Source: Haliotis cracherodii (Eukaryota). Taken from it: 64,000 nt of DNA. Position 1 is the stretch's first letter. Each line of letters opens with the position of its first letter. The DNA is taken from NCBI RefSeq assembly GCF_022045235.1, contig NW_027266275.1, positions 16,864,001 through 16,928,000 of the forward strand. The letters run 5' to 3'. Positions 3,001-63,914 of this stretch are shown in pieces. Below the pieces are notes generated by a model that was given only the letters and a program-made list of their open reading frames with translations, was not told the origin of the DNA and did no database searches. Both the position numbers and the translations under genes were made by a program.

Positions 3001-6000
3001 GAGCCGAGATATAAGCTCGTATCCTGCCGTCATGTTCCCCAGCTGGTCGTTTCCTCCAATCTGTCAACAGGAGAACAGGTTTTCTTAAAGCAATTCCAGT
3101 GTGAATACTGATGTGAAATAATCATATCATATTCTGGTATCACTGTCATGGGTTCTTCTGTTTCAACCCCTGGCTGATACACCTCGTCCTTTCCATGGTA
3201 GGTGTGATTCTGGATAAGAATATAGGTACCATACAACTGATGCTTCTCATGCGACTAAATAATGATCAGACAGACGGTCAGACTCGGTGGCTTGAATATA
3301 TCCAATTGCAGAAAGACATATATATTCATGTATTTTCAAAGTAGGTCACATCTATGGACTATTTATTCACATGAGCTATTTATTCACATGAGCTATTTAT
3401 TCACATGAGCAAGACATGTGAAGATCCGGGGTAGAATAGGTCCTCAGCAACGCATGCTTGCCGTAAAAGGCAACTATGCTTGTTGTAAGAGGCGACTAAC
3501 TGGATCGGGTGGTCAGGCTTGCTTGGATCGATGCTCATGATGTCAGTCACTGGATTGTCTGATCCAGACTTAAATATTTAAACCGCCGTCATATAGCTGG
3601 ATAATTGCTGAGTGCAGCGTTAAACAACAAACAAACAAAATCACATTTGCAAATTGACATTAAATTCCTATTAAGTCTCCTATGACAGGGAACAAGGGTC
3701 AATGGGGTTCTATCATGGTGTTCATGTAGCACATGCTGGCTGTACTGTTATGTGACAGATGTACCTGTATTGCACACTGGTGTTGTCTGTACAAGTGGAG
3801 CCAGTCATAGGACTGAAATATTTGATACGTAAACTCTGTGAAACTCATTCCTTCTTCACTCTTAAGTCTGCTCTTTACACTGAAATAATAAAGATGAAAA
3901 CACAATATGATTCACTCAACCAAATCCACTAAAGTTCCCTGCCTGTTGTAATTTCTAATTGGATATTGATAAAACTGACTCTCATCTGAACACTTCAGTA
4001 TGATTTGTGATATAAAAATCTCCTTGACAGTAATAGTTGTATCAAAATCAAAAGGTCTGTGCATGTTGCGTAACATACAATCAAACAATGGCGCAAGGGA
4101 GATAATTATCATTACATCAATAAAGCACTGTGTATAAACAGAAGTAGCCCGTCCATGTTATTTGTTGTTTTATTCATCATTACTTTTATATCAACACCAG
4201 GTACTTGGCATTTTTTGCTTTTTCACAGATTTAGTACCGTAACCAAGACAACCATGTACCTGTGTCTGGACAGCATCTGCCCCATCCTAAAATGTCGACC
4301 AGTTGTTGATAAAAATTCTACGATGTTCACATTTCTGTACCAGTCAAGGTTGTTCATAATCCTGTAAATATGTAAAGGATTTTTTTTGCAAATTACAAAA
4401 CATGGGTTGATTGAAACCTCCATCCTTATTTATACACATAGATATAACACTAGCAACAAATATATTACCTTATATAAGACAGCTAGGCGATAAATCCCAA
4501 AGAACAATGAAGAACCAAGCATGGTTTATTTCACAATAGAACATTGTTCTATCATGACATCATTTCTGGAGATTTGAACATGAGCTCGCAACTTGGTGAC
4601 ATTGTAAATTGGACAACGTTTTTTTCAAGTGGGAAGTGTTTAGTGAGTTATTCCCCAAAGATGTAGCTGGGCAAAGCAGATAAACATGACTGAATGATCT
4701 CACACACAAGTAAGAGAGATCTGACAATGGGTTTAGGGAGTAAAGGTACAATTGTGAGAATATCCGGGAAATACCAAACTTAACCCCCACTGTTCATAAA
4801 ATGGATTTGTCCGACATTGCAGAGGTTGGATTGTATTCAGGGAGTCATCATAATTTAAATATGGATGAATACTTCAAAGCTTGTACATGTTATTAACATG
4901 CTTATTTAAAAGAGGCCGTACATAATGTTGATATCTCATATACGAAATAAACGACTTATGATTTTTATATAAAATACAATAAAACACTGCAGGGAGAATA
5001 ATCTGCAGTGTTTTATTGTTCAAAGTTTACAGGAACTTTCTGTACATTGTATATTTTGCCTGCTACCACTACACACTGTTATAGCAGGATAGTAACAATT
5101 TGAATCAGGTCATATTTCTTAAAACCAGTTTCAGTTATAATTGAAATAAATAACACACAAGGCTGAGAAAAAGGTTTGCCAGGCATCGGTGTGAATTAGA
5201 CCTTTAGGACAAGTTTATTTTAAATTTTACACTTCCTAAATCATATAATAACTTCACTCATTACTTTTGTTCTAAAACACATAACATGATGAAAATCCAC
5301 CAAGCCTCATCAGTTTGAACAATATATGTCTGAGATAAACTTAAATACCCGTATTGGTATGCAGCCTAGTCAATGGTAATTATTCCTGAATAGCAAACTA
5401 TGCGTATATTAACCCAAGACGCTAGGAACAGTGAAACTATTTAACCAATTACCATGGAAATACCACTATAGATATTAAAAGTATTTTCTTCCCATATAAT
5501 CATCTTGTTCTAAACAAAATTTCACTTGGTCCTTCCTTCATCCCTGTGTATGATAATCATGGTGAAATGCGGTTTAGAATCTTATTGAAGATTATTGCAC
5601 TTATACAGCATTGTGTAATGCCTGTGTCTGTGGCTGCTTGTAATAGTCTGGACTTGTTGATGTTAGAGTGCTAGCCCACTGAGAAACCATGCCTCAGTTT
5701 TAACCCCTTAATGCCGAGTGCCAGGCAGGTAAACAGCAAGTACCATCTTCCAATGTCTTTTGGAAAAGTGGGCCCGGGAATCAAACCACCGACGGAGATG
5801 GTCTTCATCAGCACAAAATGTGTACGAGTCAGTTTAACGGAGTGAGTTTCATTAAACACAGATTTCGACAGTTTTTCAGTTATATCACAGCATGTCAGCT
5901 TGACGTGGGAGGAACACAGACATATTGCAAGTCTCAGATGTTAACCACCTTGGGGAAACTCATGAGCATAGGTAAAATCCGACAAACCAAGAAACATAAT

Positions 6001-10057: not shown

Positions 10058-10297
10058 GACCACTTTTGAAGCCTTAGGGTAGAATTGGTCCTCAGCAAAC
10101 CATGCTTGTCACAGGAATCGACCCATAGGATCAGGTGGTCAGGCTCGCTGGTTGGCTGATGCATGTCATCGTATCCCAACTGTGTAGATCGATGCTCATT
10201 GTCAATCACTGGATTGGCTGTTCCAGCCTCAATTATTTACAGACCGCCATCACATAGCTGTAATATTGCTGAGTGAGGCTTTAAGAAACGAACAACA
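10058..10297 (+). mobile_element. SINE-like family B copy
   Basis: tagaattggtcctcagcaaaccatgcttgtc...tatttacagaccgccatcacatagctgtaatattgctgag matches family B. Confidence 0.8.
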
Positions 10298-10861
10298 GCC
10301 GTTGGATCACCATAACATCTGTTAGACTGTTTAAATGAAATGTGTATATTTAGACCAGAAAACCAAAGTTGGCAAAGTGTTTTTTTGTGTAAGAAAGAAC
10401 TATCTTTCTTGTAACTTTAGATGTGAGTGGGCAATGCCTTACTTATATTTTCAAATACTTCCTTCAGAGTTACATGTTAGTCATATTGCAAATAGAATCT
10501 CAAAGTCCAATTGAGATGTTGCTTGATGGTACAGGTAGACCTTGGGTGAAGATGCAAGGGCATCAAGCCTGGCACCATGTGGTTATGATCATATGTGCAG
10601 TGCAAGCAGTTCTCCACAGACACTCTTCAGGTGAGGAGCTAGTTCCACTCTCTTTCATGAGTACGTTTCTCCAAATATGGAAGGTCTTTTGAGGATGAAC
10701 ATCTGCCCAGGGAGTGGTAGCACCTTTGCCCACTGGGCCAAGCCTAAAGTTTGCAAAGAACCTCCAAAATGAACATATGAATGCTTCGTTTTATCAAAGT
10801 AATGCTTATTGTAACAACATTTTGTACAGTTTTAGCATCTTTATTTGTGTTCACACAATAG

Positions 10862-13602: not shown

Positions 13603-16600
13603 CTAGTTGGTTTTCTTTGATGCCTCGTCATATGAGGGGGGAGGGTCCGAGGGCATGTAGACATTGTGAGGATTGGCTGGGCTGTAGTAGGCACTGCCGG
13701 CCGCCTCCCGGGCCTTCGCATCTGCAACAAACACACAAGATGTTAGTCACTGGGATACTTCACATCATTAGTTAAATTTGTAACTGGTTCATCTTGCCAT
13801 AATTTGTTAATGTGACGTTGACATGATCTATACAGCCTTAAAATGGATAAGAGGCTGGTCACATGAACATGAAACAAACTTTAAACAAGCAAACCAAACC
13901 ACAACACAATTAATAACCTGCAGTCTATTGTACTGTTAAATGTTTCGGACCTTCCTGTTATTATAGAATGCAAATGAATATATTTTCCTGAAGTGCTCCC
14001 AACTGACCACCCAGAACAACTGACACTCTTGTTACTTAAACTGAAGGAAACCTCTATTACAGTTTATAGTGTACACAGTCACTACACACAACAGCATGTT
14101 ATACATACCATGGCCGTTAGCCTGAGGTGGGGGGTAGGGCGGAGCGTTGGGATCCACTCCAGGGTACGGTGGGGGAGCTTCCGACATGTACACACCATCC
14201 TCTGTAGTCGAAAACCAAGGATGGAATAATCAGTCAAGTAATATCTCCTTTACATCAATCATAATCAGCATGGTCAGAGCTAACAACAGTAACAGGTATT
14301 TGTAAAAGAATTTGAATCATCATCATCATCATCATCATCATTTTTTTTTTGTTTAACACCACACTGAGCAATATTCCAGCTGTCTGTAAATAATTGAGCC
14401 TGACCAGACAATCCAGTGATTGACATCATGACCATTGATTTACACAATTGGGATATGATGACATGCACCAACCAAGTCATCAAGCCTGACCACCTGATCC
14501 CGTAAGCCGTCTCTTACAACAAACATGGGTTGCTTAGAGAACAACTATACCCTGGATCTTCACGTGCTACATGAAATGTCAAGTACCACCATAGTATTAT
14601 CAACAGATTTTCAATGTCATAGAATAACATAAGTAGCATTTACATATTGTCTAGTCAAACGCGCATGTCAAATACAGAAAGTCAGCGACTATTGTGACTC
14701 TTGTTATTTAGAGAGTAAGTTTGGGGTTACGCCTCTTAGAACAAAATTCCGGGAAAACAAAAACCTCACATGTCCCCATGTGGAGAAAAGAATCAAGGTC
14801 TTTGGTATGACGAGGCAGTACTTTAACGGCTTGGCTACCCCAATGCTTCTTGACAATGAGACTATAATCTCGCACAAAAGCATAACAGTTTACTGGTAAA
14901 TTTACAAATATTGCTAATTAAATACTGACAGGAAGAATTATGTCCCTTGTAATATTAGAGCTTGGGTCTCTATAGTTCTGCATTAAAATGTGAATAATCA
15001 CTGGGTAATTGGATTTTTCATTTCTGTACGTATAAATCTTATTTGAGGAATGTGAATCTCAAAAATACCAAATATCCCCCTCATAGTATTATGTACAAGA
15101 AATGATATCAATATTTCACTTCAGTAACAGTGCCTGTAGAGCAGTGAGCAGTACTTACGTGGTGGAGCTGTTGGGAATGTTTGATATGGGACCCAGTCAT
15201 AGTGTGGTGTGTGGGGCGGGGCATAGGCTGGGGGCGGGGCCTGGTACACATTGCCCATGGGTGGAGTGTAGGGTGGTGGCTGAGGTGGCCTATTGCGTGA
15301 GGCTGAAACAAATTTAATCCCAGTACTATAAAATCTAAAAATGCATTGCAACAAAAAAGAAGAAGTTTTTAATACAATTCATATTTCTAGGGACACATTT
15401 TAATACAGTGTTGATGAACATAATTGCTAGGATGCTTGGGTGTTTTCTTGATAAACAAAATTCCTCACAGTATAATATAGGTACATGAATTACAAAATGA
15501 GTCTTCATGATATCAAAAACATAGTGTCATTTAAATTTCAGTATAGGTGTCCCAACATGCCCACTGCATGGTAACACAGAAGACTTGTCAATAGTTAATA
15601 ATCTTATAATGTTTTTAAATCAGCAAACCATTTGCGGCAAAACCTAAAACAGAAGACATGTAATGAAGAAAAGAACACCAACCCAGCTGCCCAGCTTTCA
15701 TCATGGCTTGACCAAACTCTATTGCTCCACCATGAGTGAAGTACATCTTGTACCTGGCTTCACCTGTCCAGTTGCCTGCAAGTACAACACCATGTGAATA
15801 AATCTAGTGAACATGTGGAAACACTGAACGATTTATAACTCATGACAAGTATGCAACCCTCTCTTAACTATTTTCTTCCATATCTCTTGGCAATTGTTTT
15901 TCCTTTTAAGCGGTAACTGTCCTTTTCAACAAGTTACATTTAGAGTTATCTCCCTTCCTCTGGTACTAAAGACCATGTATAACCAATCTCATTAAAATCA
16001 GACCTTAGTTCTTGATACCGTAAACAAAGATCCCATTATGGGTCACAAGAAGTCGACATTAGCCAGTCAGAAGGCAGCTTTTTCGTGCTTTACGGCACTA
16101 GTTTCAAAACATATTTTGACAAATTCTGATTAAAAATTTTGAAAACTGAACAAAAGAACATTCTGGAATGGCTAATAGATGGCCAAGTTTGTATGGATTC
16201 AGTCATAAAGCCTGTAAATACCCTGTGTACCCTTTTTCCCAGTTGCATGATTCGAAAACACATTTCATGATCTGGTAAGTGACGCTCTGATTAGTTGGAT
16301 GAAAGGTCTTCTGACGTGACCCGTAATGGGATGTCCTCAAATCAGTGTTTAGCGGTAGCAGGAACTAAGATCTGATCTTAATGAGATTAATGACATGCAA
16401 TCAGCCCAGTCAGTGAGTGACCACCTGATCCTTAAGTTGCCTGACAAGCATTGGTTGCTAGGACCAGTTCTAACCCGGAATCCTCACGGGTGTGGAAAGT
16501 CAAAGGAACTCTTATGATTGTGCTAGGGAGCATTCTTCCTTTGCCAATATCCTTCAATAGTGGCATAACTATTGCAACAGTATGATGAGATTACTCTCCT

Positions 16601-24412: not shown

Positions 24413-27400
24413 ATGGCAGGCGAGGAAAGCATACAATCTTCACCTGTATCTCCAAGACCTCAAGCCAGGTCCTATCGAGCTTATGTTGAACAACAGAGGG
24501 TGTTAGCCCTGAAACGAGAGGATCCTGATGGACCTAAGTTGTGGCGGCAGATGGTGATAGGATTCATCTGTGCTGCTTGTGTTGGCTTCATTATGTTCAT
24601 TCTTGGAAGTATCTTCATATCAGAAGCCATTTCCTTGAAGTATTCTGCAACAATCATGTTGTGTGTCATGGGCATGGGTATGTATGTTCAGCGTTGATTC
24701 TGTGTGAAAGCCTTTTGCCTTTTTGAACTTCAACAAACTCAACCCACAGGATGTTAACTTCCATTTCCATTTAACAATAGGACTGGACCATTCCACGTTT
24801 TCTTGCCTTAAATATTTAGAAGCCATTTCTTCCACACTCACTAATTCACAACTGTTGGCCTTGTCAAAAACAGGAACATCATTCATTTCATGTTTCCTAC
24901 ATAGTCTACCCCTATTCCCTGACCCCTGATGATATGGGTTAGAATTGGTCTTCATCAACCCATACTTGTTGTAGGAGGCGACTAATGGGAGGGGTGACTC
25001 GATGACTTTGCTGATTCATGTCAACATGTTGCAATTGCATAGATCGGTGCACATAATGTCAATCACTGGATTGTCTTGTCTTGACTTGACGTAATTATTT
25101 ACAGACCGCCATCGTATAACTGGAATAATGCTGAGGGCATCATCATGGTCATTGAACAACAGACAAACATCTAATGTTGTTCTTTTACCCATACATGTCA
25201 TCAGCGCTATATTTAGTAAATGTATTCTCAGCAACCCGAAGACAATGATACAGTCCAGACTAATTTTGCTCTCTGTGTTTGGTTTCAACATTACAAAAGT
25301 ATAAATAGAAACATTGTTCAAAATTAAGTTGATGGTCAAGGGGTCTTTGTTGAAACCTGTGGTCCCTTGAGTCCAATTATATACTGATACAGAAAATTTA
25401 GGACCCCTACAATTTCAAACAATCCATAGATATATCATGAATATGAAGCTGTTGTGTTAGACTGAAAAAAACATATTTTGACATGTTTGGGTCGTGTTCT
25501 TGTTTTGCTTTTATTATGTTTGTTTCAAGAGCTCTCTTTACAAATGTAAACAATTTAGGTAGTCAGAACCACCTTAGTTTGATCATAGCTGTCATTCACA
25601 TTTTCAAGTAAACCATCAGTAAACTGGTTAACACTATTTGTAGTTGTAGTAGGTGCAGAAGATCAAGTTATACGATATTCTTGCATATCATGATTAAGTT
25701 CTCTTAATGTCTAATAGGTGATATATAAAATCCTGAAAATGTCCAAATTACGTATTTCATCTGCAAAATCACTGAAACTGGATAAACCAAATAATGATGG
25801 TTACCATGGTGATAATTTCGAATCTTATCTCACCTCTGTCAGGTGTGTATTTCTAAATTTTCCATTTGATTTCACAATTCCACACTTTATGTAATTGAAA
25901 AAAAACATGACAACAACTTCATAGAAACATGTCTAGGTGTTAAGAATATTTATAACAACAATGTTGAGAAATTGTTTTCCATGTATTCAAAATAATTATA
26001 ATGCTAAAATGAGACATATCAAATGTTTCCTTTATTGTATTTGATGTTTAAATAGGAAGTTTTAAGTCTAGATTTTTATTTCAGTTTGTGGTTTGATAAT
26101 TGTCGTTGGTACAATTATCCTGGGCAAGTTGTTTATATCACGGAAGTGGAGGAAGTCTCAAGGGAGGGAACTCCAGCATCCTCCAGCTGCTTGCTTTCAT
26201 ACATGTTCAGGTAGACAAAACTTTATACATGATTTGCTTTCTTGTCAAATGATGAACATGATGAAACACCTAGTTTTACCTGCATGTTGCATGATATTGA
26301 CATGGCATATACTAGTACTTAACATTTGCTAAGAACCAAAATTATCTTTAATCAGAGGTGTGATCCTCAGCAAATGCTAAGTAGTTTATATGATAATGAA
26401 GATTATGCTTTTGACAATTTTAAAGTTTCAACCATAGTTTAATGTGTTAAATTTTTTTTAGTTTGAGTGCAGAGATATATCGACCATGACAGCATCATGT
26501 GCACTGAAAAACATTTGAGACTGGCCATTGATTATAGGGAGGTGTTTGTATGAAAAATTGACACAGTTCTATTTTCTCAAATAAAAAAGTTCTAAAATTC
26601 TGGTTCACTATTTTGGGTCTAGCTATTTAATATAGGGAGGGGAGGATCATGAAAAAAATGTTTCCAAATATGATACAGTCCGAAGTCCAGTGTACCCCAA
26701 CTCCCCCAAAATAAATAACAGGTCCCTCATTACTAAGCATTTTGTTTCGCCATTTAACAACATATCCCAGTGATACTTACCGATAAGTAGTTGTGATTAC
26801 ATTAACATCTTAGGAGTTTTATCGATCCACAGACTGTAAAATCAAGAAAGTAGAAAAAATACAATTCCAGAGCTATAGATAAGCTTTTAGTCATTTGGGT
26901 ATTTTACCCAGGGGTTTGATTTTGATTGGGTATCCACAAGTTGTAGAGGGTATTCAAATTGTTTTTACCCACCTGTTTCTTGGCATTTGGGTATTTAACT
27001 TAAAACCTGTTTGGTAACAATCCCTGTAAATCATTTAAAACTATGTGAATAGTAGTATACCCGTTTGCGTCTGCTTATGACTCCCTCTGTGGAAAGCCTT
27101 TTTTTTTTACAAAACCTAGCATTGTAAGAAATGCACTATTGTCTTAATTACCAATCAGCGACTAATTAAGATACAACATGTACATTGACTAGGCACGATG
27201 TGCTTTTCAATTGGCATCTATCAGTGTTTGTCGCAGAAGCTTTTCGGAATGTAATTGTCGGTAAGTGAATTTGGCGATCACCTGATACACAATCATTTTA
27301 TCTCACAGCTGTAATACATTTTATCTGATAGTTCTAATATACACATTAACTTTATTTCAATAGCGTATTTATAGATTTTGGTGCGTATTTGATATGCTAG

Positions 27401-34871: not shown

Positions 34872-35519
34872 ATGGGATGCAAACAGACCAAGGTTAAGCC
34901 TTTCAAGCAGACATCTCCTGAGGAGGCTCTGACGGGCAAGATCAACTGTCCTCACGAGCTGTACTACGCCAAGTGTCAGGTGACACCGCCCACACCCCGA
35001 CTATCAGGGACGGAGATTCTTCAACAGTTACGAGACGAGGGCTTGGTCCCCGACCGTCAGGCCAGCGGAGGAGTTGCCTTCTCTGTCCCTGCAGTGGAGG
35101 GGGTTGTTCCCCGTGGCAGAGCTCCCCGTCGTCTGGAGCAAATCCCAGTGCGATGCTTCTACACAGCTGAGTTGAGGAGACAGAAGGCTGATCTATTCCG
35201 ATTTGACAGGTAAAATCTTTAGAACGAAGACTGTAAACACTGAAAACGTTTAAATAACTAAGCGCCCATTTGTCTTGATCTCCCAATTTCTTAAGGATCT
35301 AATTCATGATTGCATGTTTTTGTGTACAGGTTGGTAGAACAAGTCCAGAGGAAACAACTGGACAGAGAAATAAAGCACAAAGCTGTCAAGGACGAGAAGA
35401 AACGTCGCGAGTTTATCAAGAAAATGAAGGCTGAGTATCAGCTTCAGGCGAGGGAAGAGAAACTGAAGAGGCTGGAGGAAGAGCGGGCATCTGTGAAGAA
35501 GAAGGCAGCCAAGAAGTAG
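34872..35519 (+). CDS. STMND1/CCDC198-like N-acylated coiled-coil protein, copy 1 (175 aa)
   Basis: Exons 34872-35209 and 35330-35519, phase-2 GT-AG intron. MGC start (myristoylation/palmitoylation-type). RLSGTEILQQLRDEGLV..GGVAFSV...RAPRRLEQI resembles, from memory, the STMND1/CCDC198 conserved block. Lys/Glu/Arg coiled-coil tail. Family call is unverified. Confidence 0.8.
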
Positions 35520-36775: not shown

Positions 36776-36958
36776 CAAACGCCGCACCCAGCAATATTCC
36801 AGCTACATGACGGCTGTCTGTAAATAATCGAGTCTGGACCAGACAATCCAGTGATTGACATGAGCCGAGTCAATCCACGCAATTGGGATACGATGACACG
36901 CATCAACCAAGCTAGCGGGTCTGACCACCCGATCCCGTTAGTCGCCTCTTACGACAAG
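36776..36958 (-). mobile_element. SINE-like family B copy (duplicated at 41811-41993)
   Basis: aacgccgcacccagcaatattccagct...cccgttagtcgcctcttacgacaagc. Confidence 0.85.
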
Positions 36959-36959
36959 C

Positions 36960-38045: not shown

Positions 38046-38253
38046 AGTAACTGTGCAAGTCAAGAGTGTCGCCAGTGGTGACATGTCAAGTACACCTTAA
38101 TTTAACGTGAATTATATAATTATAACATTGTAAGATATTTTCCTTTCAATTTTAGAATTTAAGGGGCACAGGTCATAGGTTCAAACATGTAGGGGTTTAC
38201 TTGAAATCTACAATTCATCTTCCGAGAAACATTCACATTCCATAATAACGCGT

Positions 38254-38778
38254 ACACTAAAAGTACTCACGGAAATGAAAAAAACCTGTTTTTTCGACCT
38301 CAGATCTGAAATAAATGCAGTTAATATACAAAATATGTAAATATTCAAACAACTAAATTAGTACTAATTGGGCCGTGGCACAAATACAGCGTATCAAATG
38401 TTTTTATGCCTTTTTACACGTACAAGTGTGTATAAATGTGAATAAAACAGACTATTGTGAAACAGGGCATAACCAGGTGTAAGTAGATCAAGGTGACCTA
38501 TGACACCTTGACGACAGGTGAGAACAGGTGCATAATGCCTATAGTCTGTTTCTGCTATGTCAATTTGGACTTAAGTTTTATTTTTGAATGTTGAAAGTGC
38601 CGACAATTTACCTCCTGTAAAGTACATTTTGTATTGTTCACTGAGATCAAACTAGCAAATCCAGACTAGTACTTTTCGAGTTGTTTTGGTATTTCGTATT
38701 TACAGCTATGTAACACTTTGTGTCGATTTTTAAATTGAGAAAAACAGTTTTTTTTCATTTCCGTGAGTACTTTAGTGT
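38254..38778. mobile_element. MITE with ~40-bp TIRs (duplicated at ~43251-43724)
   Basis: acactaaaagtactcacggaaatgaaaaaa ... ttttttcatttccgtgagtactttagtgt. Confidence 0.8.
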
Positions 38779-39865
38779 CACTGTCAGAGCAGGACATATC
38801 GAACAGGTTATGATATAGCAAAAAGGACCGAACTTAGTACTAGGCTTCATCATATCATACACACAACAACCAGTATTTAAGAAAATTCGTACAAAAAAAT
38901 AAATGAGATGAGTACCCTAACGCGAACAATAAACGCAATTGAAGAAATAGATTGTTTCGCACATCGTTTCCTCACCGACTATCGGCCGTTCTGATGTGAC
39001 CCGTCATCCAGATCTTTATTTAGACGGTAGCGAGAACTAAGATTTAAATTTAATGAGATTGCAGCAAGGATTCGATGCATTGATTTTACTTTCAATCACA
39101 GTTTCACCCTGTTTTTCAGACTCCATACCATATGTGTTTAAGTGATATTCTCTCCAATTGTAAAAAAACCCAAAACAACTAACAGCTGTGCATGATATGG
39201 TAACAGGGGTAGACGGATTGTGATTGACTATAAGTTTAAATTATCTCTTTGTCAATCTGTTGAATAACATCAAATATGGCTTTGCAAAAGAGTTCAGGTT
39301 TTAAATACGCCGTTCTCTGATAGAAACATATGTATTACTTACCAACATTGAAATCACAATTGCTAAAAAAACACAATTTATTGAAAACAAAAACACTCCA
39401 GGGGAAAAATATGATATGTTGAATATTAAGTGTCGCTACATTACAGCAAAAGATAAAAGCCGAGGTTGAAACTCCATTTGGACTAACCCAAGTTTGTTGT
39501 GACGTCATTGTATAATGTTTTTTTTTTATTAATATGCTATATTATTACAGTTGTCAATGCAGGCATGACTACCGAAGTTAACAGTTTTGTAAAGGATTAG
39601 GTGCGTAAAAATCAATAAACAATATGGCCATTTATAAAGAAAAAAGGATTCCGACCTTTCTCGTGGAAGTAGCTTCTAAAATGTAATAGTCAGTGTGCAT
39701 TCGTGAAAACTCGTGTTATTCCGGTACAAGCCGAATAGCTCTTGCAGGTTACGGAAAGAGGCAAGTGGTGACGAATGAGTCAGTGACGTCACTATATTAT
39801 GACGTCATGTTATTGTGTCGTCACGTAATTATCTCGCCCATATTTGCCATAGATATCTGTCTGAA

Positions 39866-40513
39866 ATGGGATGCAAACAGACTAAGGTTAAGCCTTTCAA
39901 GCAGACTTCTCCTGAGGAGGCTCTGACGGGCAAGATCAACTGTCCTCACGAGCTGTACTACGCCAAGTGTCAGGTGACACCGCCCACACCCCGACTATCA
40001 GGGACGGAGATTCTTCAACAGTTACGAGACGAGGGTTTGGTCCCCGACCGTCAGGCCAGCGGAGGAGTTGCCTTCTCTGTCCCCGCAGTGGAGGGGGTTG
40101 TTCCCCGTGGCAGAGCTCCCCGACGCCTTGAGGAAATCCCAGTGCGATGCTTCTACACAGCTGAGTTGAGGAGACAGAAGGCTGATCTATTCCGACTTGA
40201 CAGGTAAAATCTTTAGAACGAAGACTGTAAACACTGAAAACGTTTAAATAACTAAGCGCCCCTTTGTCTTGATCTCCCAATTTCTTAAGAATCTAATTCA
40301 TGATTGCATGTTTTTGTATACAGGTTGGTAGAACAAGTCCAGAGGAAACAACTGGACAGAGAAATAAAGCACAAAGCTGTCAAGGACGAGAAGAAACGTC
40401 GCGAGTTTATCAAGAAAATGAAGGCTGAGTATCAGCTTCAGGCGAGGGAAGAGAAACTGAAGAGGCTGGAGGAAGAGCGGGCATCTGTGAAGAAGAAGGC
40501 AGCCAAGAAGTAG
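39866..40513 (+). CDS. STMND1/CCDC198-like protein, copy 2 (175 aa)
   Basis: Exons 39866-40203 and 40324-40513, intact. Differs from copy 1 by Q>E (LEEI) and F>L (FRLDR). Confidence 0.8.
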
Positions 40514-40970
40514 ACTAAGAGGAGCGAACGGAGTTGATGGTTTTGAGGATGTTGAGAACAGCGGATGATGCAAATAAATGAAGAACATTAGTTCTCACTG
40601 AAAAAAATGAACAAAAGTAAAAAAGAACAAAAGAAAAGCAACAGGCCAAGCGAAACAGGAAGCCGGAAGATGCAGTTGAAGGGGATACAGATCATACGAA
40701 TGCAGTGTGACATTGGAGAAATCCTTTAGTTTCTTTCCTAGGAGCTCATTCAAAATGTTCAGTTTATGTACATATCTAATGTAACATAGTACAATCATAT
40801 AACGCATGGATAATGTGTAAATACAATGTTTTTGTTTCATACCTTGTTGATGTTATGAGATGGATTGCTTTTAGTAATAAAATTGTTTCCGAAAACACAT
40901 GTTATACATGACAGTTTTCTTAGGATAGTAGTCGGAATCGTAGAATGGACTGTGCTTTAACCAGATATTT

Positions 40971-41140
40971 NNNNNNNNNNNNNNNNNNNNNNNNNNNNNN
41001 NNNNNNNNNNNNNNNNNNNNNNNNNNNNNNNNNNNNNNNNNNNNNNNNNNNNNNNNNNNNNNNNNNNNNNNNNNNNNNNNNNNNNNNNNNNNNNNNNNNN
41101 NNNNNNNNNNNNNNNNNNNNNNNNNNNNNNNNNNNNNNNN
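40971..41140. other. Assembly gap (N run) inside tandem unit 2
   Basis: 170 N. Falls where unit 1 has (TTTA)n and a ~62-bp duplication (36027-36145). Confidence 0.99.
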
Positions 41141-44100
41141 TATTGAGATGCTTAGGGAGTTCTGTGAGAAGATAATACAGGGGTTAACATGTGTAGGTCA
41201 TGGAACATAGTATCAAGCTTTTAGCGTGTCTGTGGGTCTCTTGGTTCTCGACAACATCCGATTAGAGTGAGTGAGTGAGTGAGTGAGTACTTTTATAACA
41301 TACAGTTTTAATAAAGGTAACTTTTACTCCAGCCAGGGAGCCAGGATAGTGATCAAACAGACACCATATTCCTGCTGAGGAAAGCTTTACTATCGCTGTA
41401 GGGGTCGTTGTCGGTACGACAGTTCGCGTTCAATTTCAAAACCCCTGGACGACCCCGATGAACACCGTTGACCAAGGTATGACCCAATTTACTTTTGGTT
41501 GACCAGTGTTAGCACATGTTAACTGGTTGACGTCATGCTTGACCAAAGTTGCCTATCGCTACTGAACCCGCGGGGTCCGGTACTCTGGGTAGGAGCCTCC
41601 AAATGAGGTAGTGACGTCATCGTTAAAGGCAATAGTTTCATTTATTGAATCAATCATGAATAAAAGCATCTTAATGAAAATAAGTAACTAGGAGATTATA
41701 GTATATATGTATTCAGAGAAATTAAAATTTTCGATTGTTGATATACAGGTGAAGATACTTTAGATAATGTTGCATCTCTGTGGGATGTTCTACTCGTAAT
41801 GTCTGAATGCCAAACGCCGCACCCAGCAATATTCCAGCTATATGACGGCTGTCTGTAAATAATCGAGTCTGGACCAGACAATCCAGTGATTGACATGAGC
41901 CGAGTCGATCCACGCAATTGGGATACGATGACATGCATCAACCAAGCCAGCGGGTCTGACCACCCGATCCCGTTAGTCGCCTCTTCCGACAAGCTTACGA
42001 CGGCTTCATCCATATTTCTCAACCGACAAAGTAAACAAAATCCTGTAGGCTCCCAAATAACCGAACTACTGGGGATGGCTACACCCATACACAACCGCCA
42101 AATTATAAAAAAACGAACACGCTGACCAAGCAGCCAAAGCAGCCCTTAAACTGCCAGAAATAAGCCCAAACTTCCCTATATCCAAAAATGAGATAAACAT
42201 CACCGCTAAGGAAAAGATTCCCCCAAAGTGCCAAACCAAGTACCAAAGCTCAAACTTTAAAATATAACATATGTTCCAAAAGCAACTAAGGAAAATTAAA
42301 AACACACCATAAATAAAAAAAAATTTGACCATGCAATAACCAAACTACAAACAGGTCACACAAAATATAACTCACATCCACATAAAAAAAAAGAAACACA
42401 AAACAGGTAAATGCACACACTGCAACCAACTAGAAACATAAAAGCACGCACTACTACACTGCACGCACTACAAACAACAGAACAACGCATCACTAGACTG
42501 CAACACTCAACTTACAGTAGCAACACTTCTAAATCCGCGTGGATCGATGCTCATATTATTAAGCAGTGGATTGTCTGGTCTAGACTCGATTATTTACAGA
42601 CCGCCGTCACATAGCTGGAATATTGCTGAGTGCGGCGTTAAACAACAAATAATAATATAATCTAAATCCGCTGAACGATACACAGATCTTCAAAGCATTA
42701 GGCACCTTCCTAATTAAAACAGGCCTACCAGGCCTCATGTAATGACCTACAAGCTTAAAACTACCATTAATCTAAAAACTTAAAAACACAAAGACCCCTA
42801 CCTCTGGTAAAGCTTCCAAATTCCCAAATTCTCAAAATCTAATTAAGCAACCCTAACGCCCCCTCACCTTTCGGACATACCCTCCTTGGCAATCTCCCCA
42901 ATCTCATTAAAATCAAATCTTAGTTCTCGCGAAAACTAAGGTCTGACTTTAATGAGATTGGCAATCTCCCTAAATGGCATGGCGGGCCCCATGTGCGTAT
43001 GCGCATAATGTCGGAAAGCGCACGTAAAATCTCTAATTACTTAGTAACTGTGTATGTCAAGAGTGTCGCCAGTGGTGACATGTCAAGTACACCTTAATTT
43101 AACGTGAATTATATAATTATAACATTGTAAGATATTTTCCTTTCAATTTTAGAATTTAAGGGGCGCAGGTCATGGGTTCAAACATGTAGGGGTTTACTTG
43201 AAATCTACAATTCATCTTCCGAGAAACATTCACATTCCATAATAACGCGTACACTAAAAGTACTCACGGAAATGAAAAAAACCTGTTTTTTCGACCTCAG
43301 ATCTGAAATAAATGCAGTTAATATACAAAATATGTAAATATTCAAACAACAACATGTTTTTATGCCTTTTTACACGTAAAAGTGTGTATAAATGTGAATA
43401 AAACAGACTATTGTGAAACAGGGCATAACCAGGTGTAAGTAGATCAAGGTGACCTTGACGACAGGTGAGAACAGGTGCATAATGCCTATAGTCTGTTTCT
43501 GCTATGTCAATTTGGACTTAGTTTTATTTTTGAATGTTGAAAGTGCCGACAAATTACCTCCTGTAAAGTACATTTTGTATTATTCACTGAGATCAAACTA
43601 GCAAATCCAGACTAGTACTTTTCGAGTTGTTTTGGTATTTCGTATTTACAGCTATGTAACACTTTGTGTCGATTTTTAAATTGAGAAAAACAGTTTTTTT
43701 TCATTTCCTTGAGTACTTTAGCGTCACTGTCAGAGCAGGACATATCGGACAGGTTATGATATAGCAAAAAGAACCGAACTTAGTACTAGGCTTCATCATA
43801 TCATACACACAACAACCAGTATTTAAGAAAATTCGTACAAAAAAATAAATGAGATGAGTACCCTAACGCGAACAATAAACGCAATTGAAGAAATAGATTG
43901 TTTCGCACATCGTTTCCTCACCGACTATCGGCCGTTCTGATGTGACCCGTCATCCAGATCTTTATTTAGCGGTAGCGAGAACTAAGATTTAAATTTAATG
44001 AGATTGCAGCAAGGATTCGATGCATTGATTTTACTTTCAATCACAGTTTCACCCTGTTTTTCAGACTCCATACCATATGTGTTTAAGTGATATTCTCTCC

Positions 44101-44801
44101 AATTGTAAAAAAACTCAAAACAACTAACAGCTGTGCATGATATGGTAACAGGGGTAGACGGATTGTGATTGACTATAAGTTTAAATTATCTCTTTGTCAA
44201 TCTGTTGAATAACATCAAATATGGCTTTGCAAAAGAGTTCAGGTTTTAAATACGCCGTTCTCTGATAGAAACATATGTATTACTTACCAACATTGAAATC
44301 ACAATTGCTAAATTTATTGAAAACAAAAACACTCCAGGGGAAAAATATGATATGTTGAATATTAAGTGTCGCTACATTACAGCAAAAGATAAAAGCCGAG
44401 GTTGAAACTCCATTTGGACTAACCCAATTTTGTTGTGACGTCATTGTATAATGTTTTTTTTTAATTAATATGCTATATTATTACAGTTGTCAATGCAGGC
44501 ATGACTACCGAAGTTAACAGTTTTGTAAAGGATTAGGTGCGTAAAAATCAATAAACAATATGGCCATTTATAAAGAAAAAAGGATTCCGACCTTTCTCGT
44601 GGAAGTAGCTTCTAAAATGTAATAGTCAGTGTGCATTCGTGAAAACTCGTGTTATTCCGGTACAAGCCGAATAGCTCTTGCAGGTTACGGAAAGAGGCAA
44701 GTGGTGACGAATGAGTCAGTGACGTCACTATATTATGACGTCATGTTATTGTGTCGTCACGTAATTATCTCGCCCATATTTGCCATAGATATCTGTCTGA
44801 A

Positions 44802-45449
44802 ATGGGATGCAAACAGACTAAGGTTAAGCCTTTCAAGCAGACTTCTCCTGAGGAGGCTCTGACGGGCAAGATCAACTGTCCTCACGAGCTGTACTACGCC
44901 AAGTGTCAGGTGACACCGCCCACACCCCGACTATCAGGGACGGAGATTCTTCAACAGTTACGAGATGAGGGTTTGGTCCCCGACCGTCAGGCCAGCGGAG
45001 GAGTTGCCTTCTCTGTTCCCGCAGTGGAGAGGGTTGTTCCCCGTGGCAGAGCTCCCCGTCGTCTGGAGCAAATCCCAGTGCGATGCTTCTACACAGCTGA
45101 GTTGAGGAGACAGAAGGCTGATCTATTCCGATTTGACAGGTAATATCTTTAGAACGAAGACTGTAAACACTGAAAACGTTTAAATAACTAAGCGCCCCTT
45201 TGTCTTGATCTCCCAATTTCTTAAGGATCTAATTCATGATTGCATGTTTTTGTATACAGGTTGGTAGAACAAGTCCAGAGGAAACAACTGGACAGAGAAA
45301 TAAAGCACAAAGCTGTCAAGGACGAGAAGAAACGTCGCGAGTTTATCAAGAAAATGAAGGCTGAGTATCAGCTTCAGGCGAGGGAAGAGAAACTGAAGAG
45401 GCTGGAGGAAGAGCGGGCATCTGTGAAGAAGAAGGCAGCCAAGAAGTAG
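44802..45449 (+). CDS. STMND1/CCDC198-like protein, copy 3 (175 aa)
   Basis: Exons 44802-45139 and 45260-45449, intact. G>R (VERVV) relative to copy 1. Confidence 0.8.
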
Positions 45450-45944
45450 ACTAAGAGGAGCGAACGGAGTTGATGGTTGTGGGGGTGTTGAGAACAGCGA
45501 ATGATGCAAATAAATGAAGAACATTAGTTCTCACTGAAAAAAAGGAACAAAAGTAAAAAAGAACAAAAGAAAAGCAACAGGCCAAGCGAAACAGGAAGCC
45601 GGAAAGTGCAGTTGAAGATACAGATCATACGAATGTTGCAGTGTTGACATTGGAGAAATCCTTTAGTTTTTTTTTATTGTTAGATTATTTATAAGAACTC
45701 TTTCGGATTACTACGTTTAATGTGTAAATACCTGTTATATACCTCAAATGGCTGTATTCATTAAATATATCATAAAATATTTTACACATGTCATATCTTG
45801 TTGATATTATGAGGTGGATTTTTGTATTATAATAAAAATGTTCCCGAAAAAAACATAGGTATTGTTGTTATAACCCAGTTGCAAGGTTATGGAGCTGGCT
45901 GGGTAGTTCTGTGACAAGGTAACACACGTGAACAGTCATATTTT

Positions 45945-47055
45945 GTTATACTCTGTCCTTGAATCCCCACTTGGAGACAATCGTGGTGTACCGGTGATAT
46001 ACTCTGTCCCGGAATCCCCACTTGGAGACAGTAATGGGGTACTGATGATATACTCTGACCCGGAATCCCCACTTGGAGACAATCGGGGTATACTAGTGAT
46101 ATACTCTGTCACGGAATTCCCACTTGGAGACAATCGTGGTGTACTGGTGATATACTCTGACCCGGAATCCCCACTTGGAGACAATCGGGGTATACTAGTG
46201 ATATACTCTGTCACGGAATTCCCACTTGGAGACAATCGTGGTGTACTGGTGATATACTCTACCTAGGAATCCCCACTTGGAGACAATCGCGGTGTACTGG
46301 TGATATACTCTGACCCGGAATCCCCACTTGGAGACAATCGCGGTGTACTGGTGATATACTCTACCCAGGAATCCCCACTTGGTGACAATCGGGGTGTACT
46401 GGTGATATACTCTACCCAGGAATCCCCACTTGGAGACAGTCGTGGTGTACTGGTGATATACTCTACCCAGGAATCCCCACTTGGAGACAGTCGCGGTGTA
46501 CTGGTGATATACTCTACCCAGGAATCCCCACTTGGAGACAGTCGTGGTGTACTGGTGATATACTCTACCCAGGAATCCCCACTTGGAGACAATCGCGTTG
46601 TACTAGTGATATACTCTACCCAGGAATCCCCACTTGGAGACAGTCGTGGTGTACTGGTGATATACTCTACCCAGGAATCCCCACTTGGAGACAGTCATGG
46701 TGTACTAGTGATATACTCTACCCAGGAATCCCCACTTTGAGACAGTCATGGTGTACTGGTGATATACTCTACCCAGGAATCCCCACTTGGAGACAATCGT
46801 GGTGTACTGGTGATATTCTCTACCCAGGAATCCCCACTTGGAGACAATCGTGGTGTACTGGTGATATTCTCTACCCAGGAATCCCCACTTGGAGACAATC
46901 GTGGTGTACTAGTGATATACTCTACCCAGGAATCCCCACTTGGAGACAATCGTGGTGTACTGGTGATATACTCTACCCAGGAATCCCCACTTGGAGACAA
47001 TCGCGTTGTACTAGTGATATACTCTACCCAGGAATCCCCACTTGGAGACAGTCAT
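45945..47055. repeat. 51-bp minisatellite (~22 units)
   Basis: Unit ggaatccccacttggagacaatcgtggtgtactggtgatatactctaccca. Explains the repetitive ORFs on both strands. Confidence 0.96.
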
Positions 47056-49999: not shown

Positions 50000-50342
50000 G
50001 GACGGTGAGGTAGCCTAGTGGTTGAGGCGTTCGCTCTCGCCGAAGACCCGGGTATGATTGCCCATGTGAGTGTGAGTGAGTGAGTATGGTTTTACGCCAC
50101 TTTTAGCAATATTCCAGCAATATCATGGCAGGGGACACCAGAAATGGGCTTCACACATTGTACCCATGTCGGGATTCGAACCCGGGTCTTCGGCGTGACG
50201 AGCGATCGCTTTAACCACTAGGCTACCCGACCGCCCCGATTTCCCATGTGGGTACAATGCGTGAAGCTGGTGTCCCCCGCCGTGATATTGCTGGAATATT
50301 GCTAAAAGCGGCGTAAAGCCATGCTCACACACTCATTCACTG
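50000..50342. mobile_element. Nested SINEs: antisense family A copy (50069-50237) inside a sense family A copy
   Basis: Host split into 50000-50068 and 50238-50342. 13-bp TSD gattgcccatgtg / gatttcccatgtg. Confidence 0.9.
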
Positions 50343-53356: not shown

Positions 53357-53624
53357 GGACCGTGAAAATCCGGGATAGAAAAGGTCTTCAGCAACCCATG
53401 CTTGCCGTAAAAGGCGACTATGCTTGTTGTAGGAAGCGACTATCGGGATCGGGTGGTCAGGCTCGCTGACTCGGTTGATGCATGTCATCGACCCTAATTG
53501 CGTGGATCGATGCTCACGTTGTCAATCACTGGATTGTCTGGTCCAGACTCGACTACTTACACATCGCCGTCATATAGCTGGAATATTGTTGAGTGCGGCG
53601 TTAAACAACAAACAAACACACAAA
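53357..53624 (+). mobile_element. SINE-like family B, full length
   Basis: Complete head and (AAAC)n tail. 13-bp TSD tc(g/a)cgcgtgacgc at 53344-53356 and 53625-53637. Confidence 0.9.
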
Positions 53625-56819: not shown

Positions 56820-57555
56820 ATTGTATAGCATGCCTAAATGTATGGTAAAGTAGGAAGTGAAACAGTTGTTATACCAGTATTATCTAAGCGTGTATTGCAA
56901 AGTAAGTAGCGTATACAGCTATTATCATTGTATAGCATGCCTAAATGTATTGTAAAATAGGAAGTTAAACAGTTGTTATACCAGTATCTAAGCGTGTATT
57001 GCAAAGTAAGTAGCGTATACAACTATTATCATTGTATAGCATGCCTAAATGTATTGTAAAATAGGAAGTTAAACAGTTGTTATGCCAGTATCTAAGCGTG
57101 TATTGCAAAGTAAGTAGCGTATACAACTATTATCATTGTATTGCATGCCTAAATGTATTGTAAAATAGGAAGTGAAACAGTTGTTATACCAGTATTATCT
57201 AAGCGTGTATTGCAAAGTAAGTAGCGTATACAACTATTATCATTGTATAGCATGCCTAAATGTATTGTAAAATAGGAAGTTAAACAGTTGTTATACCAGT
57301 ATCTAAGCGTGTATTGCAAAGTAAGTAGCGTATACAACTATTATCATTGTATAGCATGCCTAAATGTATTGTAAAATAGGAAGTTAAACAGTTGTTATGC
57401 CAGTATCTAAGCGTGTATTGCAAAGTAAGTAGCGTATACAACTATTATCATTGTATTGCATGCCTAAATGTATTGTAAAATAGGAAGTTAAACAGTTGTT
57501 ATACCAGTATCTAAGCGTGTATTGCAAAGTAAGTAGCGTATACAGCTATTATACC
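56820..57555. repeat. 104/107-bp minisatellite (7 units) with a 315-bp higher-order period
   Basis: Unit starts at 56823, 56930, 57034, 57138, 57245, 57349 and 57453. Degenerate ~50-55-bp relatives (agcatggcta..gtatt..gaag) flank both sides. Confidence 0.93.
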
Positions 57556-61555: not shown

Positions 61556-61828
61556 TAAAATAATATACTGCCTTTATCCAGGTACTATCATCTGCTTAAA
61601 ATCGTTTTATTTGTTCCCCGACCAGTGGATCCGTTTGCATTCCAGTTATCATTCTCAACTTCCTTGGGAGTATAAAACCCACGCTGCCTCCGAACGCTTT
61701 ACATCAGCCTCATATATCGGGTATCCGTTCACTGCTGGGTAAACATCGTTAGTCCATGGGCTGAAAATCAAGCGATAGTTGCCATTTCTTAACATTAATA
61801 CCCTCTTGTTTGCAGAGGCCTATGTATT

Positions 61829-62052
61829 TGTTTGTACGTTGTTTAACGCCACACTGAGCAATATTATGTGACGGAAGTCTGTAAAGTCTGGACTAAGCAA
61901 TCTAGTGATAGATGTCATGAGCATCGATCGACGTAACTAGGATACGATGACATGCATCAAGCAAGTCAGGGAGATTAACGATCCCTTCTGTCGCCTCTCA
62001 CGACAAGCATAGTCGCCTCATACGGCAAGCATGGGTATTGTTCCCGGGGTCC
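61829..62052 (-). mobile_element. SINE-like family B, diverged
   Basis: gtttaacgccacactgagcaatatt...gtcgcctctcacgacaagcatagtcgcctcatacggcaagcatggg. Confidence 0.8.
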
Positions 62053-62473
62053 TATTTATTTGAAATATGATCACTTGTTTTGTCGCTCAAGCGGACACTT
62101 GACTTCAGACATATGATCATATATACGAGCTAGATTTAGTGTCATCCACTAGAATGTCAAATTATCTTTCTCTTCTCTGTAAGAGCCAACTTCCTGCTAA
62201 CTCGCTATCTCTCGTGGCAAACGCATGTAGGACTTATTTGTAGTTCATGTGAAGTGCAGTTTAGTCCTGTTGAGGAGTCGTGTGTGAAACAGATTATACA
62301 ACAGAAATTGTCCATGATGGAACTCATTGTGCCTGAGATTCGGATAAATTCTGAGGTAATGTAAAATACTTATATGTTCTTAATTGCCGGGTAAAAGAAA
62401 GTATGCACTTTGATGGTGGGCAATGGTTATTAGACGGTGTATTTTATACGGGTATCATGGCGATATTACATGC

Positions 62474-62737
62474 TTTGTTAGTTTGTTGTTTAACGCCGGA
62501 CTCAGCAATATTCCAGCCATATGACGGCGGTCTGTAAATAATCGGGTGTGGACCACACAATCAATTGATTGACTTTATGATCATCGATACACGAAATTTG
62601 GATACGATGACATGCATCAACGAAGTCAGAAATCCTGACCATCCGATCCCGTTTGTCGCCTCGTACGACAAGCATAGTCGCCTTTTACGGCAAGCATGGG
62701 TTGCTGAAGACCTATTCTAACCGGATCTTCACGGGTC
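62474..62737 (-). mobile_element. SINE-like family B, full length
   Basis: Perfect 13-bp TSD cgatattacatgc at 62461-62473 and 62738-62750. Confidence 0.92.
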
Positions 62738-63914
62738 GATATTACATGCATCATATCCTGTTGTGAGATATTCACTGATATGATATTATATGCATGACAT
62801 CAATGAGTGTCTCACAACAGGTAACGTGCAGATGACATCTTAAGAAACAGGGACTCGCAATGAGCAGAGTGAATCGTCAAGAGTATGCTTTCTTTTGGCC
62901 GGCAGTGTATTCATACATTTTGTGACATGTAGATACACAAATCAAGATAATTAAAATAAGATATTTAATCCGATGTATTTATACATATATATTCCTTACC
63001 TTAATATCTCCAATGTGCGCTAATGTCATTGGTCCGTCATTCGTGTGTCTGTCAGTCCGGTCTTTCTTCCGACCGTCCGTCCGTTAGCAGGGCAACATAA
63101 AATAAGCGTTTCTCCAAATCTACGGAAAGATCAATATAAGTTTCAAATAACTTGTTGTGCATGCCTCTTGCTACAACCTAGGAATTTTAAAGAAAAGTAA
63201 ATTGGCCGTCGAAGACTCTCATTGTGTTGAAAAATAGCCTTCGTGCCAGACTCTTGAAAGAACCCAGTTTTCCCATTTCAAGAGTATGATCACACGATCC
63301 TTCCCTACATTAAAAAAATTAAAATATAACTAAGATTTTTGTAATCTGTTGGATATCCAAAAATTTCAACCACATGCTGACAGAGATAACTGATTCTAAA
63401 GCAACTCTTTATATTTTAAGTGATTGTTCAGGCATATTATTGGTTGTTAGCCATATCTAACCCCCTGAATTAATCAGCAGGAATGGGTTATATGTATAAA
63501 TTCAGTTATTGATACAGTGGAGACTCATTGCTCTTGAACTCATCTATTCAATGTATTGCAGCATCAAATAAGATTGATCAAGTATTAACTGTTTTTGAAT
63601 AAAATGCTTCTTTCGATTCAAAGGCTCTTTGTCTTATGATGCAATGAGGTCCGGTTATGTTCACTGTGATAAATCATCTATCAAACTTGGAATTTCTCGC
63701 TTCAAAATTTAACAGTTAATGAAAAAACATTATTTCCATTTGTTTGGTATGATGTCCTCCACACTAAAAAAACTAGTGTGGAACCACCTCGTTCCGTAAA
63801 TGTTACCATTCGGATTTTTGACCTTCAAACACATGTATTTTAATTAAAAGGACCCACTTCTTTACAACTGAACTATTGTTGAAATTGGAGTTGAACTCGA
63901 GTAACTCACTCACT

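What the first reader, a model, noticed from the sequence alone, without database searches (positions are those of the whole stretch)
62474..62737. Family B retroposon has no Pol III boxes but a fixed 5' end and a predicted pseudoknot: candidate structured RNA or ribozyme head
Seen: about a dozen copies or fragments (3413, 10058, 14566, 16490, 24921, 36958, 53357, 62052, 62737 and others), some with 12-13-bp TSDs and (AAAC)n tails, so it is retrotransposed. Intact copies start at or near the same point, GACCCGTGAAGATCCGGGTTAGAATAGGTCTTCAGCAACCCATGCTTG, and I find no tRNA A or B box. GAAGAYC can pair with GGTCTTC while GGGTT pairs with AACCC, which are crossing stems (H-type pseudoknot). A hairpin GTCG-TAAGAGG-CGAC follows, locally duplicated in some copies. 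The copy ending near 16490 shows GAGGA/TCCT in place of GAAGA/TCTTC, a possible compensatory change. Established: several LINE clades define their 5' end with self-cleaving ribozymes, and bipartite LINE-5'/LINE-3' non-autonomous elements exist. Inference: this is a bipartite LINE derivative whose head is a functional RNA fold that I cannot match to hammerhead, HDV or twister consensus.
Basis: partly seen in the sequence, partly recalled or inferred. Interest (0 to 1): 0.7.

Follow-up and report, generated by a model that had tools for sequence, protein, structure and literature searches.

The report
Retrotransposon RNA knot shared with viruses
The front end of this abundant mollusc jumping element is predicted to fold into a two-knot RNA shape that also heads related jumping genes and sits in the tails of unrelated RNA viruses, and it likely shields RNA from being chewed from its 5' end, a trick so far described in viruses.

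Summary
The element is real: a ~260-bp retroposon with a 12-bp target-site duplication, no Pol III boxes and roughly 10^5 copies. It is most likely the Haliotis LP-SINE described in 2016 (PMC4758252), whose LINE-derived head was proposed as a promoter. The head is better explained as structured RNA. Across 24-26 families it shows covariation for an H-type pseudoknot (4-bp S1, 7-bp S2), a second hairpin, an invariant T-loop-like hairpin and a second pseudoknot. The same fold follows a complete HDV-like ribozyme at the 5' end of I-group LINEs in this genome; 28 of 30 sampled copies keep the ribozyme and none starts at the fold, which argues against the fold being a 5'-cleaving ribozyme or a start-site-setting promoter. 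It also lies, sense-strand, 7-125 nt after the last stop codon in six distinct RNA-virus contigs, twice in tandem. Five SINE-like families start two nucleotides before S1. Best reading (0.45, untested): an exonuclease-blocking (xrRNA-like) module that sets and guards the 5' end. Rivals: translation or host-factor binding, promoter, new ribozyme. No Rfam match; not found in ten literature searches.

The parts
62474..62737 (-). Full-length family B (LP-SINE-type) retroposon copy, two-unit subfamily
62738..62749 (.). Target-site duplication, 5' copy (12 bp)
   Evidence: identical to 62462-62473
62462..62473 (.). Target-site duplication, 3' copy (12 bp)
62732..62735 (-). Stem S1, 5' strand (CCCG), two bases from the element's 5' end
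   Evidence: covariation; boundary
62724..62731 (-). One-base loop L1 plus stem S2 5' strand (7 bp)
   Evidence: 6 of 7 pairs change on both sides
62721..62723 (-). Stem S1, 3' strand (this copy has lost one G relative to most copies)
62713..62718 (-). Near-invariant AGAATA at the 3' end of loop L3
   Evidence: 25 of 26 representatives have AGAAT; this motif was also a search anchor
62706..62712 (-). Stem S2, 3' strand
62694..62704 (-). Hairpin P3 whose loop (CCC) is the 5' strand of the second pseudoknot
   Evidence: (P3 z=4.9, PK2 z=4.7)
62675..62691 (-). First, degenerate copy of the conserved hairpin (22-nt duplication)
62652..62669 (-). Conserved hairpin P4 with 7-nt T-loop-like loop and YRA linker (two changes in this copy)
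   Evidence: T-loop reading is inference
62645..62651 (-). 3' strand of the second pseudoknot (GGG)
62535..62644 (-). Body of unknown origin
   Evidence: no convincing match to the local I-group LINE or Rfam
62488..62534 (-). LINE-type tail shared with the window's tRNA-derived SINE and weakly with I-group LINE tails
   Evidence: 74% over 34 nt, E 0.23
62474..62487 (-). Terminal (CAAA)n-type repeat
53357..53620 (+). Second full-length copy with 13-bp TSD
3413..3640 (+). Copy with head and internal deletion
24921..25140 (+). Older single-unit copy
16419..16492 (-).
10058..10300 (+). Older copy
14340..14568 (-). Older single-unit copy
61825..62052 (-). Older copy lacking most of the first pseudoknot

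Best explanation
Family B is a LINE-headed SINE whose first ~70 nt are predicted to fold into a double-pseudoknot RNA shared with LINE 5' ends and RNA-virus 3' UTRs, and this fold likely blocks 5'-to-3' exonucleases (an xrRNA-like module of a new class). Shown: retroposition hallmarks, covariation of four helices, the fixed 5' boundary, the HDV-plus-fold tandem in local LINEs, the viral placement. Inferred: copies are transcribed by read-through from host promoters; Xrn1/Xrn2 trims the host-derived leader and stalls two bases before S1 (six to seven bases before S2); the protected RNA is then copied in trans by an I/Nimb-group LINE that recognises the shared tail. In LINEs with an upstream HDV-like ribozyme, cleavage sets the end and the fold would be a second barrier; in viruses it would yield 3'-UTR subgenomic RNAs.
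For: Covariation in 24-26 family representatives anchored by sequence only: S2 133 of 168 cells paired vs 96.6 shuffled (z 6.6), S1 88 of 96 (z 4.1), P3 z 4.9, PK2 z 4.7; G-U 19 vs A-C 5 fixes the strand. Plain MAFFT alignment of 11 compact members: 89% cells paired, 11 of 19 pairs change on both sides, 0/500 shuffles reach the covariation score, slid controls 30-46%. Present in RNA viruses, which have no DNA stage: 6 distinct contigs plus one near-duplicate, all sense, 7-125 nt after the last stop, tandem in L420 and L427; xrRNAs are described in 3' UTRs and often in tandem (PMC8374639). Shared sequence starts at S1 minus 2 in 5 families; class 1 xrRNA halt sites lie 5-6 nt before P1 and are precise to 1-2 nt (PMC5760640). 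28 of 30 LINE heads carry a full HDV-like ribozyme, 2 partial, 0 start at the fold; TSDs end at the ribozyme's G1 in 2 of 2 checked. A stable 5' fold raises R2 insertion, proposed through exonuclease protection (PMC11331408). [quoted passage not shown]
Against: No exonuclease assay and no RNA 5'-end data: small-RNA runs gave too few head reads. [quoted passage not shown] L3 varies from 6 to 63 nt, unlike a 15-16-nt ring. The first base is mostly a purine (64-89% in 5 families), which suits a transcription start. The ~17-nt invariant stretch suits binding to a host factor as well. No LINE copy trimmed to the fold was seen in 30, though trimming might be expected now and then. The dominant subfamily has a duplication inside the second domain. 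Shuffle controls ignore relatedness, and the invariant motifs were the search anchors, so their conservation is partly built in.
Confidence: 0.45

Rival explanations
1. The fold binds a conserved host factor (initiation factor or ribosome): a cap-independent translation enhancer in uncapped viral RNAs and ribozyme-cut LINE RNAs, and for the SINE a dock that brings it near newly made LINE protein.
For: Near-invariant loop sequence across animals and viruses; kept behind the HDV-like ribozyme about 540-870 nt before ORF1; 3' UTR of tombus-like contigs, a group known for 3' translation enhancers (search listing; otherwise recalled); upstream of a long ORF in a large DNA virus contig.
Against: Does not explain why five families begin exactly two bases before S1. 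No match to Rfam models.
Confidence: 0.23
2. The head is an internal Pol II promoter at DNA level (the published LP hypothesis), with the RNA fold as a second function, as in the trypanosome Pr77 element.
For: Proposed in PMC4758252 section 10, untested there; purine at the first base and a fixed CCCGTG near the start.
Against: Occurs in RNA viruses with compensatory changes; distance from 5' end to the invariant core varies by over 50 nt; 0 of 30 LINE copies start at the fold.
Confidence: 0.13
3. The fold is a new class of self-cleaving ribozyme that cuts two bases before S1.
For: Precise 5' boundary; many invariant unpaired bases and a C-U-A-A linker like HDV J4/2 (likeness recalled); ribozymes occur in UTRs of linear RNA viruses, including tandem pairs (PMC13725137 passages).
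Against: Cleavage there would remove the upstream HDV-like ribozyme, yet 28 of 30 copies keep it whole; bases at the would-be cut site are not conserved between families; cutting just after a viral stop codon would sever the 3' end, and contigs run through the site.
Confidence: 0.14
4. The fold is a recognition signal for LINE proteins or viral replicases, or a relic carried by descent.
For: All carriers are self-replicating RNAs.
Against: Carriers use unrelated enzymes (I-group RT, tombus-like and toti-like RdRp, a DNA virus); covariation shows selection on the fold.
Confidence: 0.05

Closest known systems
LP-SINEs Hdi_LP / Hmi_LP and Nimb-17_LMi-type 5' domain (Matetovici et al. 2016, PMC4758252; sections 9-10, passages, part 1 of supplementary PDF and table rows read)
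   Same: LINE-derived ~70-bp head, TSDs, terminal tandem repeats, 255-bp consensus length; the scallop head in Suppl. Fig. S2 carries the same 17-nt invariant stretch and, by eye, the same stems with compensatory changes.
   Different: The sections I read propose a promoter and describe no RNA fold, no viral copies and no HDV-plus-fold tandem. The Haliotis consensus (Fig. 3A) was not visible, so identity of sequence was not tested.
Viral xrRNAs, classes 1-3 and coremin (PMC8374639 parts 1-2; PMC5760640 passages; PMC12397905 parts 3-4 and passages; PMC10321173 abstract)
   Same: Compact 50-80-nt fold with pseudoknots, 3'-UTR placement, tandem copies, a T-loop-like hairpin, a precise 5' boundary.
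   Different: No three-way junction, different strand order, no sequence likeness; found in host retrotransposons; resistance untested.
HDV-like ribozymes at LINE 5' ends (R2, RTE, L1Tc/ingi Pr77; PMC11331408 passages, PMC5786205 parts 1-3)
   Same: Short structured module at the 5' end of non-LTR elements, swapped between clades.
   Different: The head does not fit the HDV topology; a true HDV-like module sits directly upstream of it in the local LINE.
ENE triple-helix stability elements (recalled, no call)
   Same: Precedent for one RNA-stability fold shared by RNA viruses and retrotransposons.
   Different: ENEs guard the 3' poly(A) end and use U-rich loops; no likeness in fold.
Bipartite non-autonomous LINEs (Kojima 2018, PMC5786205)
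   Same: Short element with LINE 5' and LINE 3' parts and no small-RNA head.
   Different: Reported there only for RTE, Ingi, Vingi and R2; here the relatives are I/Nimb-like and the body is of unknown origin.

Membership tests
LP-SINE | Head homologous to the first ~70 bp of Nimb-17-type LINEs | tested here: met
   By-eye match to Suppl. Fig. S2 heads; 78% over 63 nt to the head of a local I-group LINE, E 1.6e-9
LP-SINE | No tRNA/5S head, no Pol III boxes | tested here: met
LP-SINE | Variable TSDs and terminal tandem repeat | tested here: met
LP-SINE | Identity with the Hdi_LP/Hmi_LP consensus | tested here: inconclusive
   Length 252-264 vs 255; consensus only in a figure not held; paper's AATATA hexamer reads AATATT here; host genus inferred from (CACCT)n MESC-type tails
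xrRNA | Blocks Xrn1 without proteins, precise halt site | not testable with these tools
   needs an in vitro assay; genomic boundary is only indirect
xrRNA | At least one functional pseudoknot | tested here: met
   two pseudoknots supported by covariation; function untested
xrRNA | Ring of 15-16 nt around the 5' end | not testable with these tools
   no RNA 3D tool; variable L3 is a caution
xrRNA class 1/2 | Three-way junction P1-P2-P3 | tested here: not met
   derived structure has none; description
xrRNA class 3 | P1/P2 stem-loop with apical-loop pseudoknot and T-loop inside that loop | tested here: not met
   T-loop-like hairpin lies outside, strand order differs
HDV-like ribozyme (family B head) | P1 7 bp from G1, P2, 3-bp P3, 7-nt L3, P1.1, catalytic C | tested here: not met
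   12 nt between S2 strands cannot hold P2-P3-L3-P3; no Rfam HDV hit on the head while the same model hits the LINE module
HDV-like ribozyme (module upstream in the local LINE) | Same topology; element starts at G1 | tested here: met
   P1 7/7 with G-U, P2 7/7, P3 3/3, L3, GG, GCUAA; RF02682 27-29 bits, below its cut-off of 44; TSD ends at G1; cleavage itself untested
Hammerhead, twister, twister-sister, pistol, hatchet | Match to Rfam models | tested here: not met
   no hit in window or in loci carrying the fold
Bipartite non-autonomous LINE | 5' and 3' parts from one LINE, little else | tested here: inconclusive
   head matches, tail weak (E 0.23), ~110-nt body unmatched in the one LINE compared

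The most novel reading that the evidence does not exclude
The head is a new class of exonuclease-resistant RNA encoded in animal genomes: it lets promoterless SINEs and some LINEs be carved out of host transcripts by Xrn trimming, a third route to a retrotransposon 5' end besides internal promoters and ribozymes, and the same module has moved between retrotransposons, several RNA-virus lineages and a large DNA virus.
Probability: 0.4. Interest if true: 0.9.

Novelty: new variant of a known kind. Interest (0 to 1): 0.76.

Why it matters
How SINEs without Pol III promoters get a defined 5' end is open; the 2016 paper left the promoter idea untested. A 2021 review treats cellular xrRNAs as still to be found. 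Here a ~70-nt fold with covariation support is shared by retrotransposons of several animals and by unrelated viruses, and every rival (Xrn block, cleavage, translation, promoter) can be told apart with short in vitro RNAs. Whichever wins, it is a conserved RNA motif absent from Rfam 15. If it blocks exonucleases it would also be a compact natural 5' stabiliser for RNA templates.

Tried and rejected
HDV fits to the family B head in several registers: none gives P3/L3/P1.1. Single-sequence folding is uninformative for pseudoknots (z -2.6 for the window copy, -1.7 to +0.75 for the other five). MAFFT of 25 members misaligned the 5' half, so an 11-member compact set and anchor-based counts were used; two viral copies (L427) lacked the 5' anchor and were left out of the S1/S2 tests. 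RNase H search found another I-group LINE family without this head or tail. No LINE with a tail identical to family B was found; the search was limited to best hits. Prokaryotic genomes: 14 pattern hits, 7 scoring over 39 bits, those at contig ends, beside microsatellites or in animal-symbiont assemblies and read as eukaryotic carry-over; the other 7 scored 13 bits or less. Most viral-collection pattern hits were chance and scored under 26 bits. Sequencing runs: no RNA holder listed; small-RNA runs had 1, 18 and 0 reads on the head, too few for end mapping; contigs cannot show ends. One family (F155) gave no rows in the boundary test. Literature: ten searches, including the motif itself as text, listed no description of this fold; subscription journals, figures and Repbase/Dfam are not covered, and Ruminski 2011 could not be read. 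Earlier scan findings: none.

Full report
Observation. The copy at 62474-62737 (-) is flanked by a 12-bp duplication and ends in an (AAAC)n-type repeat. The window holds 13 body fragments and 10 head matches. The genome is a 1.18-Gb eukaryote. In 40 stretches of 10 kb taken at round coordinates there were 72 bodies and 46 head matches, which scales to about 1-2 x 10^5 copies. Half of tail-bearing copies (27 of 54) have a detectable head; 19 of the 27 align from base 1-5. There is no tRNA, no Rfam hit and no A/B box pair.

Identity. Matetovici et al. 2016 (PMC4758252; sections 9 and 10 read) describe LP-SINEs in Haliotis, oysters, Littorina and scallops whose first ~70 bp resemble the 5' ends of Nimb-17_LMi, I-3_DR and RTE-9_CPB, and propose an untested promoter role. 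The scallop heads in their Suppl. Fig. S2 carry the same 17-nt invariant stretch; the Haliotis consensus is 255 bp. I infer that family B is the local Hdi_LP-type family; the figure with the consensus was not available, and the host genus is inferred from MESC-type (CACCT)n tails. Parts 2-5 of the supplementary PDF were only searched, not read.

Relatives. A pattern excluding family B's own continuation gave 219 hits in the genome, among them other heads. Clustering gave about two dozen families.

Structure. With columns set by sequence anchors only, 24-26 representatives show: S1, 4 bp between the 5' CCCG and the strand right after S2 (88 of 96 cells, z 4.1, includes C-G to G-C swaps); S2, 7 bp (133 of 168 cells, z 6.6, slid controls 61-77); loop L3 of 6-63 nt plus AGAAUW; hairpin P3 (z 4.9); an invariant 4-bp hairpin with loop U-A-W-R-A-G-G, which fits a T-loop pattern (inference); and a second pseudoknot from the P3 loop to bases after the YRA linker (z 4.7). 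On an unfitted 11-row alignment 89% of cells pair and 11 of 19 pairs change on both sides. Caveats: shuffles ignore relatedness; invariant motifs were search anchors; several representatives are single, possibly decayed copies.

Autonomous partner. Locus L286 is a two-ORF LINE with endonuclease, RT and RNase H domains, so I-group; Nimb-like is my inference. Its head is 78% like family B over 63 nt, its tail only weakly alike, the body not. Directly upstream of the fold lies a complete minimal HDV-like ribozyme. Of 30 loci taken by the fold alone, out of 478 exact matches, 28 have the whole ribozyme, 2 nearly all, none starts at the fold; ORF1-selected sets agree (28 of 30 and 20 of 20 have the fold with ribozyme sequence upstream), and TSDs end at the ribozyme's first G in the 2 checked. 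So in this LINE the fold neither cuts at its own 5' side efficiently nor sets a start site.

Viruses. Six distinct RNA-virus contigs (L420, L251, L426, L229, L424, L427; L094 near-duplicate of L251) carry the fold at 46-77 bits, several by construction of the model (L424 and L427 were not in it). Their ORFs match tombus-like and toti-like RdRp, nodavirus, tetravirus-type and S-domain capsid families; L420's protein matched no Pfam family. In all six it is sense-strand, 7-125 nt after the last stop, with tandem copies in L420 and L427. A 212-kb DNA virus contig (L421; iridovirus-like by my recall) has it between genes, upstream of a long ORF. Prokaryotic hits looked like eukaryotic carry-over or chance.

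5' boundary. In family B and four metagenome families shared sequence begins two bases before S1, mostly with a purine. Contigs of a related species' run also lose similarity at that point and run on into unrelated upstream sequence (237 contigs; that run is only guessed to be RNA).

Mechanism. An RNA-level role is shown by covariation and by presence in RNA viruses. A role in setting the 5' end is suggested by the fixed boundary. Cleavage and promoter readings are weakened by the HDV-bearing LINE. What remains most economical is a block to 5'-3' exonucleases: known xrRNAs sit in 3' UTRs, often in tandem, halt 5-6 nt before their first stem and can use a T-loop, and 5' fold stability helps R2 templates. 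Against this: no assay, no evident ring, plain pseudoknots do not stop Xrn1, and the purine start. I give xrRNA-like 0.45, host-factor or translation element 0.23, new ribozyme 0.14, promoter 0.13, other 0.05.

Novelty. The SINE type is known. The fold, its tandem with an HDV-like ribozyme and its sharing with viruses were not found in ten searches of the open library or in Rfam 15; Repbase, Dfam, figures and subscription journals were not searched. Rated a new variant of a known kind, interest 0.76.

Noticed in passing
L286:507-6660, L336-L365, L479-L498, L529-L558 (G000, e.g. C2:20.9-21.75 Mb): Young I-group LINE families, ORF1 down to about 50% identical, share a nearly identical 5' module of minimal HDV-like ribozyme plus fold; many copies cluster on C2 at 20.9-21.75 Mb. 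I-group/Nimb is not among the six ribozyme-bearing clades listed in PMC5786205.
   Followed up: partly
window 6691-6840, 17515-17670, 50150-50320: A tRNA-derived SINE with A and B boxes shares the LINE-type tail with family B but ends in (CTCA)n, like the local LINEs.
   Followed up: partly
L026:1670-1700: 31-nt antisense small RNAs from the SINE body, one dominant 5' end starting with U (63 and 9 molecules in two runs), piRNA-like.
   Followed up: no
window 34851-45673: About 5-kb tandem segmental duplication at 97-98% identity; it doubles the copies at 36958/41997 and 37511/42538, so these are not independent insertions.
   Followed up: no
window 1200-2380, 21483-22172, 45944-47050, 56820-57552: Minisatellite arrays with periods near 59, 42, 51 and 104 bp.
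   Followed up: no
G000:C3:43398492-43429203 (L071-L074, L298): Head-to-tail array, period about 6.4 kb, of another RNase H-bearing LINE family that lacks this head.
   Followed up: no
L370, L375, L379, L369, L372, L373, L377: Bacterial genome assemblies that carry eukaryote-like retroposon pieces at contig ends or among microsatellites, likely contamination or chimeric joins.
   Followed up: partly
L091:252-1598 (-): Viral ORF without Pfam match whose motifs read in the order C-A-B, as in permuted RdRps (read from the sequence; family names recalled).
   Followed up: no
L031, L037, L038, L060, L121: Tandem heads in retroposons, echoing the tandem copies in viral UTRs.
   Followed up: no
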